IMG/VR virus record: IMGVR_UViG_3300031521_000016
Coordinates: 1 to 35,894 of that record
Direction: 5' to 3' (one strand)
Length of the DNA stretch: 35,894 nt
Origin: a virus
Lineage: Duplodnaviria > Heunggongvirae > Uroviricota > Caudoviricetes
Positions 18,258 through 32,627 of the stretch are shown here, piece after piece. A program made the translations under genes and the position numbers. Positions within the stretch are counted from its first letter, which is position 1. Every line of letters starts with the position of its first letter. The notes under the pieces were generated by a model. It did no database searches and had not been told where the DNA came from. It saw only the letters and a program-made list of their open reading frames with translations.

Positions 18258-19085
18258 TTATGAATTTAGCATATCTGTTTTTATTTTCGATACTAATTCC
18301 AAATGAGCTGGTCCAAACGGAGTCCATGCAATACCCATTTCTTTAAGATCATATTTTTGAACTACTGTACTATAATCGGTTACTCCTTCTGGATGTCCAA
18401 TTAAATAAATAACATCGGCTAATTCGGTAGCAAGATGTAAATCATGAGTTGAAAAAATGATAGTATTTAATTCATCACTTGATTGAATTAATTCGAAAGC
18501 CTCTTTTACACTTTCAATATTTCCAACATCTAAACCAGAAAATGGTTCGTCGAATATCATGAAATGCTTTGATGTAAGAAGCTGTTCAATAATTGCTGTA
18601 CGTTGTCTTTGACCACCGGATAACTCGCAAGGGTATTTATCTTTATGTTCGATTAGTCCCCATTTGGTTAACTGTTCATCGATAAGTTTCGTTTTTTCTT
18701 CTTTTGGTAACATACATTTTTTCAGTGCATAGAACATGATTTGATTCACTGTCTTATGTCTAAATAATGTATATTTTTGATCAACAAAACCTACATCTCC
18801 TTCAGCTACTTCTTTAGCAGCTTCTGGTTGTCCAGGCATTGAAGTAGAAATTAAAACTCTTCCGGAAATTGGTTTATCAAGTCCAGATAAAGCTCTGAAT
18901 AATGTAGATTTTCCTCTTCCAGAGCGTCCTACTACAGCTATAACTTGTCCAGTGGCTTTGACACCTTCACGAACCACATCTTTTTCGACAATCGTAACAT
19001 TTTTCAAAACACCTTTTCCACTATAACCGACTGAAATATTGTCGAGATAGAAAATTGTCTGTTTAAGTTCGTAATTATAGCTCAT
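18258..19085 (-). CDS. ABC transporter ATP-binding protein (NitT/TauT-like)
   Basis: Walker A GRSGRGKST, signature LSGGQRQR, Walker B MIFDEPF, switch THD. Confidence 0.93.
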   Translation of the reverse strand: MSYNYELKQTIFYLDNISVGYSGKGVLKNVTIVEKDVVREGVKATGQVIAVVGRSGRGKSTLFRALSGLDKPISGRVLISTSMPGQPEAAKEVAEGDVGFVDQKYTLFRHKTVNQIMFYALKKCMLPKEEKTKLIDEQLTKWGLIEHKDKYPCELSGGQRQRTAIIEQLLTSKHFMIFDEPFSGLDVGNIESVKEAFELIQSSDELNTIIFSTHDLHLATELADVIYLIGHPEGVTDYSTVVQKYDLKEMGIAWTPFGPAHLELVSKIKTDMLNS

Positions 19086-19855
19086 ATTTTTGAAAATCTA
19101 AAAGACATTTTACGTATTGAAGTTAGAATATAGTCAAGGAGTATACCGATTGATAGAATAATGATCTGTAATGCAATAACCCTTCCTTGATTACCTAACT
19201 TATCTGAATTTTTAATTAGAAATCCTAAACCTCCGGCTGCAGCTAATAAACTTTCAACCGTTATTAGCATCATCCAAACGATAGCCAAATTTTGTCGAAT
19301 ACTTTCGATTACATAGTCGAATCTTCCTTTTATGACAACTTCATAAAGAATTTCCCATCTACTGCAACCTAATGCTCTGGCATGGTCAAATTCCTCTTGT
19401 GGAATATCTTTGATGACACCTAATATAGAAGTTGCAAAGAACGTACTCATGAATACCACGAGGATAGATACTTGTGTTATTCTGGCATCCGATATCAAAA
19501 TAGATAAGTAGAATGCGATACCTGCAAGAGGTAAGTATCTAAACTTTGAAATAAATGAAGAGATCGGTTGTAAAATTGGAACAGGTGATAAATAACAAAA
19601 TGATAATGAAAATAAGACCGATATTAAAACAGCTTGACCACATAGTGATAAAGAGCTTCCGATATGAACAGTTAAACCTTCATTCCATAATGCACCGAAA
19701 CCTTCTAAGACTTGAATTGGCGTTGGAAAAATGTGCGTTTGACCAATGTAGCTTGATGTGACCCAAAGAGTAAGAATAGAAATTAACCATCCTAAGCGGA
19801 TGGTTAATTCTGTGGAACTCTTTATTTTTTCAAAAGGGCTTAATATTCCTTTCAT
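19082..19855 (-). CDS. ABC transporter permease (NitT/TauT-like)
   Basis: Multiple TM segments, FPTP, EAA-loop-like EEFDHARALGCSRW, GGLGFLI. Confidence 0.9.
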   Translation of the reverse strand: MKGILSPFEKIKSSTELTIRLGWLISILTLWVTSSYIGQTHIFPTPIQVLEGFGALWNEGLTVHIGSSLSLCGQAVLISVLFSLSFCYLSPVPILQPISSFISKFRYLPLAGIAFYLSILISDARITQVSILVVFMSTFFATSILGVIKDIPQEEFDHARALGCSRWEILYEVVIKGRFDYVIESIRQNLAIVWMMLITVESLLAAAGGLGFLIKNSDKLGNQGRVIALQIIILSIGILLDYILTSIRKMSFRFSKI

Positions 19856-21663
19856 TATTTCATGATGTTAATTTCGCATCTACGATTCTTTGCTCTACCA
19901 GCTGCCGTTACATTAGTTGCAATAGGGTTGGCTTCACCTAATCCATCGACCTTTTGGAAACGTGTTTCATCGATGCCTTTATTAGCAAGATATGTTTGAA
20001 CCGCTTTAGCTCGTTGTTTAGATAGAGTTAAGTTTGTGTTATCATCTCCTGCATTATCAGTATACCCGGTGATTACTACTTTAGAATGTTCTCCTTGAAC
20101 CAATAGGCCGTAGATAATTTCTAGTTCTTTTGTACCGATTATGTTAGCAGAACCTGAAGCGAAATTGATTTGCCATTGTCCTGATGCCATAACTGTAGTT
20201 TGTGTAGCAGTATAGTCTTGTTTTGTTACAGAACCGGCATCTACATCGGTGATAGATTTTAAGAAGTATAAATTCACAGCTTCTGAATAAGGAATGATAC
20301 CACCTTTTACAGATTCATTAAAGCCACATGGATTTAATTCTACAAGATATTTAGAAATTTGTTCATATACTGTCTTGTATCTATTTGTACCATCGGTTAG
20401 TCCAAAGTATTGCATTGCATCAGCATAATTCAATGCTCTTGTTCCACCGATATTGTATTGTACTCCGGCTTTTGTTTTATGAATACCTTTGAACATTGTA
20501 TACCAGTATTCAGGAGATTCAAAGTTGTAAGTTTTACATACAACTTCTGATCCGAATCGTGCCCATTCATCATATTGTTTTACTTGGTTAGAAGCAGTAT
20601 ATGCATTCTTTAAAAGTGCTACGACTTGTTTTTCATGTGCCACTGCCCATTCTTTAACTACTACAATAGAAGTTGCCATTTGATTAGTGAACTCTTTAGT
20701 TGAGATTACATCTGTATATCCTGATAAAGCATCGAATGCAATTTTATCTCCCGGAGTCCATGTGGTAGCACCATTGATTTTGATATTTACTGTGTTACCA
20801 GTCAATTTACCATCTTTTACTTCTTTAAGTGGAACAGTAAAACCTGTGTTTTGTGATTTAATAAGCTCTTTTACAGAGTTGATATAGTCATCATTTTCAG
20901 AAGGAGTAAAGTTGATAGCATCAGGGTCATATGTTTTTACATCCGGATTAACTTTGATGTTATTAGCAAAGGCAAAGTTGATAGCTACTACCCAGTCACC
21001 ATCTCCTACTACTGATGAAATAAGACAACCTTTCATTAATTGTGGATTTTTCTTCCATGCATCTGGTCCGATTAATTTATCTTCACCGTCCGACATTCCA
21101 ATTGCTCCAATATTTTGTAAGTGATACTTATCTTTACCGAATTTATCGTTTAAAGCCTGTTGACCGGTTGCTATATAAAATGGAACACCATCACCCATGA
21201 TAGATACTGCGAATGCCGATTTGTCAGCATCTGGGTATTCTTTACCGGCTGCTAGTTCTTCTACGAACTTAAGTTGCATATTACGTAAATCCGATACTCC
21301 GTCGATACGTACAATTTCTAAATTAAGGTCGGATGCTTCATTTAATGATCCTTTTGTAGTACGAGGTCCACCATTAGCAGCAATCATTCCGATGTTTCCG
21401 TTCCATGCATATTCGGCGATACGAATAAGTGGTTTCTTTGCGGCCGAAGTAGAAGGAGTTTGTGAAGGGGTTTCAAGTTTTGCAGCTTTTTGCATGTTAT
21501 CGATATGATCTTTACTCAACGATAATCCAGCAAGTCTTTTAGCTGCATCAATACGAAGTCCCGGTGAAAGCCATGCGATGGCACCTAATACAATTGCTAA
21601 ACCGATTGTTACAATGACTGCTTCAGCACCACTGGTCAATTTAGTCTTTAAAATTTTTCCCAT
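19855..21663 (-). CDS. membrane-anchored substrate-binding protein fused to an OmpA-like peptidoglycan-binding domain
   Basis: N-terminal TM; periplasmic binding-protein-like core; C-terminal INFASGS...ITGYTDNAG...NLTLSKQRAKAV...NRRCEI. Confidence 0.85.
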   Translation of the reverse strand: MGKILKTKLTSGAEAVIVTIGLAIVLGAIAWLSPGLRIDAAKRLAGLSLSKDHIDNMQKAAKLETPSQTPSTSAAKKPLIRIAEYAWNGNIGMIAANGGPRTTKGSLNEASDLNLEIVRIDGVSDLRNMQLKFVEELAAGKEYPDADKSAFAVSIMGDGVPFYIATGQQALNDKFGKDKYHLQNIGAIGMSDGEDKLIGPDAWKKNPQLMKGCLISSVVGDGDWVVAINFAFANNIKVNPDVKTYDPDAINFTPSENDDYINSVKELIKSQNTGFTVPLKEVKDGKLTGNTVNIKINGATTWTPGDKIAFDALSGYTDVISTKEFTNQMATSIVVVKEWAVAHEKQVVALLKNAYTASNQVKQYDEWARFGSEVVCKTYNFESPEYWYTMFKGIHKTKAGVQYNIGGTRALNYADAMQYFGLTDGTNRYKTVYEQISKYLVELNPCGFNESVKGGIIPYSEAVNLYFLKSITDVDAGSVTKQDYTATQTTVMASGQWQINFASGSANIIGTKELEIIYGLLVQGEHSKVVITGYTDNAGDDNTNLTLSKQRAKAVQTYLANKGIDETRFQKVDGLGEANPIATNVTAAGRAKNRRCEINIMK

Positions 21664-21703
21664 GTTTTTGTTTTTAAATGATTATTTTTTAATATGAATT
21701 ATT

Positions 21704-21746
21704 TTATGATACAAAAATAATACAATTACGTCTATTTGCAAAACGT
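21704..21746 (-). promoter_or_regulatory. repeated phage promoter, copy 9
   Basis: ACGTTTTG-N19-TATTTTTGTATCATAA. Confidence 0.9.
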
Positions 21747-21770
21747 AATTGTATTATTTTTGTAAATATT

Positions 21771-22877
21771 TTAGAAAATGCTTCCTAATGAACCGAGAGA
21801 ATCTTTATCAGTAGATGATAATTTATAGTCAGGGTTATTATACTTTTTAGTATCAGTAGTTGCTTTTTCTCCGGCAGTAATACTATTTGCCAACTTATCA
21901 AGATTAGCATAAAGATCATCACTATTTAAGTTATAGTCTTTAGTAGCAGTATCGATATCCTGAAGATTAGTTGTAGTTATTGCAATATCGGCAGTAATTG
22001 CACTTGATACACATTCGATAGCATACTCAACTTCCCAACCGGTAGTAAATAAGATAGCATCTTTTGCTGCAGTCGTAGCATCTTTCGATTTTTCAGCAAA
22101 GTCATAATCACGTTTTAGCATATCTACTGTAGCATCGAAGTCAGCAATTTTGATATCCATAGAAGTTGCCACCATAGTCAATTTTTGACCAAGTTTCTTC
22201 ATGATAGTTGCACGAGACATGTATTTCTGTACAAAATTCTGTTCTTGTTCTAATTGAGCGGCTAAACGTGTACTTTTAGAAACAAGGGTAAGAAGTTCAG
22301 CGCTATCATTAACATAGTCATCTTCCTCTTTAGCTTTTACACCACCTTCTAAAAATCGTCTATCTAAGTCATCATGAAGAGCTTTTGCTTGATCTCGTAA
22401 TCTAACGATTTCTTTTAGATCTTTTTCAGCATCTCTTTCATTTTTCTTAGCTTCTACTTCCATATCTCTTCGGAGATTTTCAATTTTAGCTTTAGAAAGA
22501 TAAAATTTATCTCTATTTGCGAGTAAACCTACTCGTTTATTTGCTAATTCACCGAGTGGATCATATTGTATAATCGATTTATGAATAGCTCTAGTTAATA
22601 ATCGTAAGCCTCTGATGATATTTGGTATCATCATAATTACAAATACAAGAAATGCACCGGTAGCTACTAATGCAATAGCCTTGCCAAGATATATGAAAAG
22701 TGGTGGTAGAACATATTTGAAGATAAGGAATCCAGCGAGTCCAAATACAGCTAGTTTAATAAACCAGAAGAGATTTTTTTCACCTTTTCGGAATACGTCT
22801 ACTTGTTTAGTTACATTCTCAGGAAAGTGTTGCATAAAAGGCAACTGTTGCAAACCATTACTTACATTGTTTGTCAT
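21771..22877 (-). CDS. membrane-anchored long coiled-coil protein (PspA-like architecture)
   Basis: Two N-terminal TM helices then more than 250 aa of heptad-rich helix. Confidence 0.65.
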   Translation of the reverse strand: MTNNVSNGLQQLPFMQHFPENVTKQVDVFRKGEKNLFWFIKLAVFGLAGFLIFKYVLPPLFIYLGKAIALVATGAFLVFVIMMIPNIIRGLRLLTRAIHKSIIQYDPLGELANKRVGLLANRDKFYLSKAKIENLRRDMEVEAKKNERDAEKDLKEIVRLRDQAKALHDDLDRRFLEGGVKAKEEDDYVNDSAELLTLVSKSTRLAAQLEQEQNFVQKYMSRATIMKKLGQKLTMVATSMDIKIADFDATVDMLKRDYDFAEKSKDATTAAKDAILFTTGWEVEYAIECVSSAITADIAITTTNLQDIDTATKDYNLNSDDLYANLDKLANSITAGEKATTDTKKYNNPDYKLSSTDKDSLGSLGSIF

Positions 22878-22891
22878 CTTTTTATTTTATT

Positions 22892-23617
22892 TTAGATTGT
22901 TGAAAGATTATTTTTTACTTTTACTAATGAAGTCGTAATATGTTCTTTTGCCATATCGTTAGCTGCGAGCTTTAATTTTATTTCATTAAGCTCAGGATCA
23001 AATTTACTATCGATAGTGGCAAGTTCGGCTGTTTTATTTCCGAGTTGAGTTTGCAACGTTGATATTTGTTCAGTCAATGACTGAATATCGGTAGTTAAAT
23101 TCCGGGTGTCTGTTTCCTTTTGAGTAGCTATTGCAGCTGCTTTTAAATTCCCATCAGTATCGAAAGTTGTGTGAATGTTGTCGATCTCCTTGATATAAAA
23201 ATCGGCTTGTTCCAATAAAGTTTCTTTCGTTACAGATTTGTCCATTCTTACGGCCATTCCAAGTCCCATAGTATAAACTTGTGGATTATCTATACCCATT
23301 TCTGATACAGATTGGTAGAACTCGAAGAAGTCGTATCCAGGTTGATTTAATGCTTCAAACCTCTTATCATATACCTCAATAATTTTATCCATAAATGGAT
23401 TACCTACCTGTGTAGGTTGAGGTTGTGAAAATGATGTTGCAGCTGGTGGAACAAATGATGTTGCAGCCGGTGTAACGGGGAATGAAGTCGCAGAGGGAGC
23501 AGCAGTAGTAACGGGAAATGAAGTTACTGGTGGGGCAGGTGTTGCTTTTACTTTAGCTTCTTCTTCTGCTGCTGGGGCTTCAAAAATTGCATTTTTAATA
23601 ATGTCTTTAAAACTCAT
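22892..23617 (-). CDS. hypothetical protein with Pro/Ala/Thr linker and C-terminal coiled coil
   Basis: Four TSF repeats in the linker; GYDFFEFY core; coiled-coil tail. Confidence 0.75.
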   Translation of the reverse strand: MSFKDIIKNAIFEAPAAEEEAKVKATPAPPVTSFPVTTAAPSATSFPVTPAATSFVPPAATSFSQPQPTQVGNPFMDKIIEVYDKRFEALNQPGYDFFEFYQSVSEMGIDNPQVYTMGLGMAVRMDKSVTKETLLEQADFYIKEIDNIHTTFDTDGNLKAAAIATQKETDTRNLTTDIQSLTEQISTLQTQLGNKTAELATIDSKFDPELNEIKLKLAANDMAKEHITTSLVKVKNNLSTI

Positions 23618-31730: not shown

Positions 31731-31999
31731 TTATTGTCTCTGTTTTTTCCTAAGTGATATCCATCACAGTATACACATTTGTATACTGAGAAGTGTTTAT
31801 TTTGTTTACGCTTCATACTATCTGCAGCCTTTTCTGCAGTAGCTCTAGTATTATACATGACTTTCAGTTTTCCATCTTCTCGTTGATGACTTCTTTTACT
31901 GAACATTCCCAATGCATTACCAGTTACGATGAAATTGACAAAAGCCCGCTTTATAGGTCCTTGATCTTTAAGCGCAATATATAAGTTTCTAAGTTTCAT
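31727..31999 (-). CDS. small basic protein with C-terminal CxxC..H
   Basis: YKCVYCDGYHLG. Confidence 0.75.
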   Translation of the reverse strand: MKLRNLYIALKDQGPIKRAFVNFIVTGNALGMFSKRSHQREDGKLKVMYNTRATAEKAADSMKRKQNKHFSVYKCVYCDGYHLGKNRDNK

Positions 32000-32008
32000 A
32001 AGCTAAAA

Positions 32009-32148
32009 TGAGCCACTATAATCAGTGTAATTAATTTGATAGAAGTTTGACAAGCGAAGTGTGAGGTTTGATATCTTGAATTTTAAACTTTAACTTCAGT
32101 ATCGATATCTTGTCATAAATGTTCAATTACAATAAGAATAGTGGCTCA
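32009..32148 (-). ncRNA. candidate structured RNA (four nested helices)
   Basis: Pairs 32009-19/32138-48 (11 bp), 32026-32/32125-31 (7 bp), 32048-54/32109-15 (7 bp), 32056-60/32093-97 (5 bp). Confidence 0.65.
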
Positions 32149-32156
32149 AGTGAGGT

Positions 32157-32585
32157 TTAAATTTCAGTAGTCAAGTTGTGCATATCTAACTCATCTTGAA
32201 GAGCACCGATTTCGTCTTCTAAGAGAGTGATACGTTCCTTAATGTCTTTTGCATTAAGTTCCACTTCTTTCATTTGTGCTACTGAACTGTAATGTCCGTA
32301 GACTTTACCTTCTTCAGTAGAAATTGCACGAAGTTCTTTAACGTAATTTTTATATTCAGACAATAAGAAGATTTTGCCGTATACTGGAGCATTTGCTACG
32401 TGAATTTTAGATTTTAATTCTGCTAGTTCAGCAGCTTTAGTCTTAGCTTCATCTAGCGAAGCTTCAACACTAAAATGTCTTACGTTTCCTACTTCTATAG
32501 AATTGTTTAGACGGGCTACTTCATATAGTCCATTAAGTTCTTCTATTAATTTGTTTTTTAGTTTTAATGCTTGTTTTACGTTCAT
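32157..32585 (-). CDS. DIP1984-like helical protein
   Basis: MNVKQAL..K..L...N...EL.ELK.KI..AN...LQDELD.HN.TTEI resembles the DIP1984 family pattern (recalled). Confidence 0.6.
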   Translation of the reverse strand: MNVKQALKLKNKLIEELNGLYEVARLNNSIEVGNVRHFSVEASLDEAKTKAAELAELKSKIHVANAPVYGKIFLLSEYKNYVKELRAISTEEGKVYGHYSSVAQMKEVELNAKDIKERITLLEDEIGALQDELDMHNLTTEI

Positions 32586-32627
32586 GATAATATTTGAGTA
32601 TTGAATTAGATTTTAAAATAACAAAAA

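What the first reader, a model, noticed from the sequence alone, without database searches (positions are those of the whole stretch)
32000..32585. Candidate ncRNA-protein module: 140-nt four-helix RNA right behind a DIP1984-like gene
Seen: the whole gap between the stop at 32157 and the next ATG at 31999 folds as nested stems on the minus strand: TGAGCCACTAT/ATAGTGGCTCA, TGTAATT/AATTACA, TGACAAG/CTTGTCA and GAAGT/ACTTC. The apical loop holds short repeated units (TAAAG TTTAAAA TTCAAG ATATCAAA), and there are direct repeats AAACCTCAC (x2) and CAAGATATC (x2). Four colinear helices are unlikely by chance, and the element lacks terminator shape. Inference: a cognate RNA bound by an oligomer of the helical protein, acting either in autoregulation or as a ribonucleoprotein of unknown function.
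Basis: partly seen in the sequence, partly recalled or inferred. Interest (0 to 1): 0.78.

Follow-up and report, generated by a model that had tools for sequence, protein, structure and literature searches.

The report
Partner RNA behind DIP1984-like phage gene
Right behind a small phage gene of unknown function lies a conserved 140-base folded RNA with a row of evenly spaced 7-base units; relatives of the gene in phages and bacteria nearly always carry such an RNA, which points to an uncatalogued protein-RNA particle whose job is untested.

Summary
Observation largely confirmed. The 140-nt element (32009-32148, minus) folds far better than shuffles (z -5.2) and has no Rfam match. The gene is a distant, mostly phage branch of DIP1984/DUF6847 (3KDQ fold Z 12.4; HHalign 97%; family cut-off not met). 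175 of 177 homologous loci carry the same RNA core behind the gene; the two exceptions have longer versions. The four-helix picture is only half right. The closing helix is conserved by compensatory change (own partner beats foreign partners, p<5e-5). The inner helices are not conserved. What is conserved inside is sequence: three GAU units, then a row of UCA/UUA units 7-9 nt apart (seven here). Bacterial DIP1984 genes also have a closed 3' RNA, with a covarying RGCG/GR loop and YAC units 7 nt apart. Best reading: a cognate RNA that the dimeric protein coats unit by unit, often placed among tRNA and RNA-repair genes. Binding, expression and function are not shown. This copy is the shortest seen. 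The scan has reported this module before on other DNA (258 notes naming DIP1984). I found no paper describing it.

The parts
32157..32585 (-). 142-aa DIP1984/DUF6847-like helical protein (phage subfamily), predicted homodimer
32009..32148 (-). Self-enclosed 140-nt structured RNA; shortest of 41 representative elements
32125..32148 (-). 5' strand of the closing helix (outer stem 32148-32138, second stem 32131-32125)
32009..32032 (-). 3' strand of the closing helix (32032-32026 and 32019-32009)
32096..32115 (-). GA(C/U) units at 5-6 nt spacing (GAC 32114, GAU 32109, GAU 32103, GAA 32097); homologues have three GAU 6-7 nt apart
32042..32093 (-). Seven UYR units at 7,7,8,7,7,7 nt spacing (starts 32093, 32086, 32079, 32071, 32064, 32057, 32050), ending in the conserved UCAAACUUC; the only such row in the 140-kb genome
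32048..32115 (-).

Best explanation
The gene and the RNA form one two-part module. Shown: the RNA's two ends are held together by a conserved helix around a loosely structured core whose sequence is conserved, with units at about 7-nt spacing; it is nearly always found with the gene. Inferred: it is transcribed with the gene and released or protected as a discrete RNA. Inferred: the protein, an antiparallel dimer, assembles on the core with one binding site per unit, using conserved residues outside the dimer interface (K8, K10, K12, K79, Q130, D134, N137). Inferred, weakest step: the resulting particle acts in RNA stress, as a scaffold or decoy beside tRNA supply and end-healing enzymes, much as Ro60-Y RNA does, and so helps the phage keep translation running against host RNases.
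For: Core HMM hits 175 of 177 homologue loci; with the window and L187 left out it still finds the window element as best hit in 140 kb (E 0.009). Reverse test: 3 of 8 pattern hits in viral contigs match the core HMM and all 3 follow a homologue. Own 5'/3' duplex -26.9 against -16.2 kcal/mol for foreign partners, own partner best in 24 of 41, 0 of 20000 permutations. 60 two-sided changes against 28 in shuffles, slid controls at 42-48% paired against 77.6% (shuffles ignore kinship). UCA spacings of 7, 8, 9 nt seen 38, 40, 32 times against about 5.5; GAU spacings of 6, 7 nt seen 33, 25 times against about 3. Core 78% identical to L187 while third codon positions are 49%. Bacterial members have their own closed RNA with covarying stems (19 of 20 more) and a different unit, YAC. 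Self-association model 0.64, best control 0.00, runs agree in at least 95% of contacts, pLDDT at least 88; the mark was reached by 20 of 30 known pairs and 1 of 23 single chains; the pass may come from memory of 3KDQ. Context: rnz-rtcB-X-DIP1984-RNA-rtcA; tRNA arrays with GOLLD and tmRNA; RNA ligase, AAA_33 kinase and HAD_SAK neighbours in 12, 13 and 7 of 117 loci; Thg1.
Against: Nothing shows binding. The protein is not basic overall (net charge -5, family median 0). RNA-repair neighbours are in a minority of loci, such genes are common in the variable regions of large phages, and there was no background control. This phage fragment (57% complete) has no tRNA, RNA-ligase or RtcB hit. Many plasmid copies stand alone. 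The unit differs between branches, and L238 lacks the GAU triple.
Confidence: 0.55

Rival explanations
1. RNA-antitoxin module: the RNA keeps its own protein inactive by coating it, and loss of the RNA (RNA damage, transcription shut-off) frees a protein that acts on the cell or on a competing phage.
For: Self-contained mobile gene-plus-RNA unit on 340 Acinetobacter plasmid records and in other phyla; patchy in genomes; repeated units would allow titration.
Against: No catalytic motif or nuclease fold is evident. The RNA lies downstream with 7-nt units, unlike type III antitoxins. Its place inside rtcB-rtcA operons and tRNA arrays fits repair better.
Confidence: 0.15
2. Cis-acting 3' element: the protein binds the end of its own mRNA and sets its stability or the expression of downstream genes; no separate RNA particle exists.
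For: The element starts within about 10 nt of the stop in most loci; here the next gene starts 10 nt after it; about a quarter of elements (11 of 41, crude screen) are followed by a hairpin and U-run.
Against: Downstream genes vary freely. In L228 a whole gene sits between the protein gene and the RNA. Feedback alone does not explain why the module is kept in phages and several phyla.
Confidence: 0.17
3. The RNA works by itself or with a host protein (RNase sponge, processing signal), and the gene is only a linked passenger or chaperone.
For: No direct evidence of binding; neighbourhood of GOLLD, tmRNA and tRNAs.
Against: No orphan RNA core in the reverse search or elsewhere in this genome; the unit sequence changes with the protein branch.
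Confidence: 0.1
4. Chance folding, a terminator, a stop-codon recoding signal, or a DNA-level site.
For: AT-rich spacer; short repeats could be DNA binding sites; the opposite strand of this copy folds at least as well (-39.1 against -33.8).
Against: Covariation with many G-U pairs on the sense strand; no terminator; the stop is almost always TAA and can be separated from the RNA; a 7-9 nt period does not match the DNA helical repeat.
Confidence: 0.03

Closest known systems
DIP1984 family (NCBIfam NF038048, Pfam DUF6847 PF20935, structure 3KDQ; called septicolysin in some plasmid papers)
   Same: Same fold over the whole chain (Z 12.4, rmsd 3.6, 139 aligned), profile match 97%; bacterial members also carry a closed 3' RNA.
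   Different: Below the curated cut-off (16 against 70 bits); 13% identity to 3KDQ; RNA unit UCA rather than YAC; no RGCG/GR loop. I found no paper on an RNA for the family.
Ro60 (Rsr) with bacterial Y RNAs (YrlA; PMC4201824)
   Same: Protein gene plus adjacent ncRNA whose ends pair into a long stem around a large loop; found in bacteria and phages; bacterial copies lie in rtcB-rtcA operons, as Rsr-Y RNA does in Salmonella (own knowledge).
   Different: Unrelated small helical protein; no GNCGAA motif and no tRNA-like domain in this RNA; a periodic unit row instead.
TRAP-trp leader and HutP-hut terminator RNA of Bacillus (own knowledge)
   Same: An oligomeric protein reading short triplets repeated at fixed spacing.
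   Different: Those RNAs are 5' leaders coupled to terminators of metabolic operons and respond to a ligand; here the RNA is 3' of the protein's own gene, closed on itself, with a 7-9 nt period.
Type III toxin-antitoxin (ToxIN, CptIN, TenpIN) and AbiF-type RNA antitoxins (own knowledge)
   Same: Compact mobile protein-plus-cognate-RNA cassette with repeats.
   Different: No RNase domain evident; no upstream array of about 35-nt repeats with a terminator.

Membership tests
DIP1984 / DUF6847 | Reaches the curated HMM cut-off | tested here: not met
   NF038048 16 bits against 70; no PF20935 hit; 26 of 29 homologues hit weakly, best E 2e-6
DIP1984 / DUF6847 | Full-length profile homology to true members | tested here: met
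   HHalign 97.2%, E 3.4e-11, 124 columns; the bacterial profile hits 3KDQ at 1.6e-42
DIP1984 / DUF6847 | 3KDQ fold | tested here: met
   Top hit in both searches: Foldseek TM 0.64; Z 12.4, rmsd 3.6, 139 aligned, next best 8.8 (helical proteins inflate Z)
Ro60-Y RNA (YrlA) | GNCGAAN0-1G motif near the 5' end | tested here: not met
   Absent from the element's sequence; motif defined in PMC4201824
Ro60-Y RNA (YrlA) | tRNA-like domain / Rfam YrlA match | tested here: not met
   No Rfam hit in the window or on homologue elements; no tRNA-like gene
Ro60-Y RNA (YrlA) | Ro60/TROVE gene nearby | tested here: inconclusive
   None in the 140-kb fragment, which is 57% complete; none in 3 of 4 bacterial genomes with DIP1984
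TRAP / HutP attenuation | Short triplets repeated at fixed spacing | tested here: met
TRAP / HutP attenuation | Repeats overlap a terminator in a 5' leader | tested here: not met
   Element is 3' of its gene, has no terminator here, and downstream genes vary
TRAP / HutP attenuation | TRAP or HutP fold | tested here: inconclusive
   Not listed in the fold searches; the best match is 3KDQ
Type III toxin-antitoxin | Upstream array of about 35-nt repeats and a terminator before the toxin gene | tested here: not met
   The RNA is downstream with 7-9 nt units; only 42 nt upstream
Type III toxin-antitoxin | Protein toxic without its RNA | not testable with these tools
   Needs expression; no PADLOC hit for the window protein
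Intrinsic terminator | Short GC-rich hairpin followed by a U-run | tested here: not met
Stop-codon recoding element (SECIS / readthrough) | Fixed position after a recodable stop | tested here: not met
   TAA stop in nearly all homologues; RNA displaced by about 110 nt in L162 and by a whole gene in L228
Cognate RNP (any) | Direct, unit-dependent binding of protein to RNA | not testable with these tools
   No protein-RNA test available

The most novel reading that the evidence does not exclude
DIP1984/DUF6847 proteins across phages and bacteria are the protein half of an undescribed class of ribonucleoprotein. A closed RNA with a row of 7-nt units templates a protein oligomer of set size, the unit sequence co-varies with the protein branch, and the particle acts in RNA repair or in phage-host conflict over tRNA. 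This 140-nt copy is close to the minimal form.
Probability: 0.45. Interest if true: 0.88.

Novelty: categorically new. Interest (0 to 1): 0.76.

Why it matters
It would give a first functional handle to a structurally solved but unexplained protein family that is common on Acinetobacter plasmids, and add a new bacterial and phage RNP class. The shortest natural copy, with a 142-aa protein, is a convenient construct for binding and cryo-EM work. Branch-specific units (UCA against YAC) allow a direct swap test of recognition.

Tried and rejected
Rfam: no match on the window or on phage or bacterial elements. Papers: DIP1984 gave one unrelated paper, 3KDQ and DUF6847 none, septicolysin gave genome surveys and other papers unrelated to an RNA by title, two RNA-focused searches gave none; the Burroughs and Aravind RNA-repair review is not held, so prior mention there or in large candidate-RNA catalogues is not excluded. 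Expression: no RNA holder listed; the one small-share run gave a 177-nt contig upstream of the gene and no cover of the element; this says nothing either way. RNAalifold on the sequence-only alignment gave no consensus structure and column covariation showed no inner helix; structural MAFFT was not installed. A ladder pairing GAU units with UCA units, and GAUAUC with GAUAUC (probability 0.03), has no support, though the near-invariant columns cannot show covariation. A K-turn reading of the bacterial loop was dropped: it is a 4x2 RGCG/GR loop closed by a covarying A-U/U-A pair. UCA pairs at the gene's own start (autorepression) are not enriched, 3 against 1.1 with maximum 5. No promoter above chance. 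TRAP, HutP, ToxN and Ro60 folds were not listed in the fold searches, which does not exclude them. Cultured phages gave only one weak hit.

Full report
Setting. The window is the first 35.9 kb of a 140-kb virus record, about 57% complete. The gene 32157-32585 (minus, 142 aa) is followed by a 157-nt gap and a 90-aa gene of unknown function.

Observation. The gap folds at -34.6 kcal/mol against -18.7 +/- 3.1 for shuffles (z -5.2). The first three helices have pair probabilities of 0.9-1.0, the fourth 0.3. There is no Rfam match and no terminator. Three other assemblies carry the same protein; the two I compared differ from the window element at one loop base, so it is not an assembly artefact.

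The protein. It scores only 16 bits on NF038048 (cut-off 70), but 26 of 29 homologues hit that model weakly. The family profile aligns to true bacterial members at 97.2%, E 3.4e-11. The model (pLDDT 89) finds 3KDQ first in two fold searches (TM 0.64; Z 12.4, rmsd 3.6, 139 residues), and 3KDQ is a true family member by sequence. The subfamily is large (1055 representatives at E<1e-10) and mostly viral. A four-copy prediction passed as an antiparallel dimer: 0.64 against 0.00 for the best control, runs agreeing in at least 95% of contacts, pLDDT at least 88; that mark was reached by 20 of 30 known pairs and 1 of 23 single chains, and the pass may be memory of 3KDQ. Nearly invariant K8, K10, K79, Q130 and N137, plus K12 and D134, are not among the listed interface residues. 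The chain's two ends are bridged, so several of these may form one RNA-binding patch (inference).

The RNA in phage homologues. I fetched 185 loci and kept 41 non-redundant elements of 140-204 nt; the window's is the shortest. A sequence HMM of the core hits 175 of 177 loci with enough flank; the two misses are longer versions with the same closing helix and motifs further on. Part of that count is by construction. Leaving out the window and its closest relative, the HMM still ranks the window element first in 140 kb (E 0.009). Six of seven more distant homologues have a closed element directly behind the gene; the seventh, L228, has it one gene further on. In the reverse direction, the three pattern hits in viral contigs that match the core all follow a homologue; the other five look like chance.

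What is conserved. The closing helix is. Taking the 45 nt after the stop and the 55 nt after the last conserved motif, own partners pair at -26.9 kcal/mol against -16.2 for foreign partners; the own partner ranks first in 24 of 41, including the window and L187; 0 of 20000 permutations reach this. In the long clade 77.6% of cells pair against 66.4% shuffled and 42-48% slid, with 60 two-sided changes against 28; many pairs are G-U on the sense strand (the shuffle ignores kinship). The inner helices are not conserved: helix 3 pairs at chance level, and in L187 (66% protein identity) helices 3 and 4 are broken while the core is 78% identical against 49% at third codon positions. The core is conserved as sequence. 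A GAU pair 6-7 nt apart occurs in all 41 elements (mean 1.46 against 0.30). UCA recurs at 7-9, 14-18 and 22-25 nt. The window has seven UYR units from 32093 at 7,7,8,7,7,7 nt, the only such row in the genome, ending in the family's UCAAAAYUC-type motif.

The bacterial branch. Of 18 loci of true DIP1984 genes from several phyla and plasmids, the 15 non-redundant ones all have a 3' element closed by two stems around an RGCG/GR loop. The first three outer pairs and five inner pairs are canonical in all 15, with up to five pair types per column (partners were picked by pairing of four of the inner positions, so the outer stem and the A-U/U-A swap are the unbiased part). 19 of 20 further relatives have it. 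Their 3' half has YAC units at 7, 14 and 21 nt, so the strongest periodic triplet is CAC/ACA in bacteria and UCA in phages. None is in Rfam. I did not show that the two RNAs are homologous; they share position, closure and period.

Context. In Acinetobacter the order is rnz-rtcB-unknown-DIP1984-gap-rtcA. On small plasmids and elsewhere the gene and RNA stand alone. Phage homologues lie in tRNA arrays with GOLLD and tmRNA, or near RNA ligase, AAA_33 kinase, HAD_SAK, phosphoesterase or Thg1 genes, each in about a tenth of loci, without a background control. The window has a related phosphoesterase 2.3 kb downstream but no tRNA, RNA ligase or RtcB in the fragment. 14 of 40 homologues have the Bacteroidota promoter motif TAnnTTTG upstream (1.6 expected); the window gene does not.

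Mechanism. Shown: linkage, closing helix, periodic conserved core, family-wide occurrence. Inferred: discrete RNA, unit-by-unit binding by the oligomer, and a role in RNA stress. I put the RNP reading with that role at 0.55, a cis-acting 3' element at 0.17, an RNA antitoxin at 0.15, an RNA independent of the protein at 0.10 and a non-RNA explanation at 0.03.

Comparison and novelty. It may work like Ro60-Y RNA in layout and context, and like TRAP or HutP in reading spaced triplets, but it fails the defining features of each that could be tested (PMC4201824). No paper in the library describes it, with the gaps noted. Earlier notes of this scan report the same module in many genomes; they are not independent evidence, and their claims of a circular or knotted RNA and of expression were not tested here. 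One checked note lost its bold functional reading, which is a reason for caution about function. Verdict: real, conserved, uncatalogued, function untested; interest 0.76.

Noticed in passing
L217:1-4762; L212:1-3262: Acinetobacter operon rnz-rtcB-unknown gene-DIP1984-[260-nt gap with the RNA]-rtcA; the unknown 216-aa gene has no Pfam hit.
   Followed up: partly
L211:1498-2170: The DIP1984 gene on the common 8.7-kb A. baumannii plasmids (called septicolysin in papers) is followed by the closed RNA with the GGCG/GA loop.
   Followed up: partly
L192, L214, L215, L218, 3' flanks: Some bacterial DIP1984 RNAs contain a tRNA T-arm-like hairpin (GGGUUCGAYUCCC) and a 5' GGCGA/GGCGU that resembles the Y RNA motif, without a Rfam YrlA match.
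   Followed up: partly
L192, L194, L195, L208, L213-L215, L218, just 3' of the closing stem: A conserved G-rich tail (GGGYGGG..GGGG) that could pair back with inner C-rich segments as a pseudoknot; other members lack this tail and pair the C-rich segment internally.
   Followed up: no
L228:813-1860: A 144-aa gene with a HAD-like DFDST motif lies between the DIP1984-like gene and its RNA; Thg1 is upstream.
   Followed up: partly
L001, L003: GOLLD RNA, tmRNA and up to 24 tRNA genes within 3 kb of the homologue.
   Followed up: partly
window 2469-24207: Many unrelated ORFs end in an RG....KKFGF-type tail.
   Followed up: no
window 18258-23617: ABC ATPase, permease, OmpA-like periplasmic protein and two coiled-coil genes form a transporter-like cluster in the phage.
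   Followed up: no
window 32586-32600: Two UCAA units 7 nt apart just before the gene's own start codon; not enriched in homologues.
   Followed up: yes
L104:3285-3330: The apparent split in this homologue coincides with a run of N in the assembly.
   Followed up: yes
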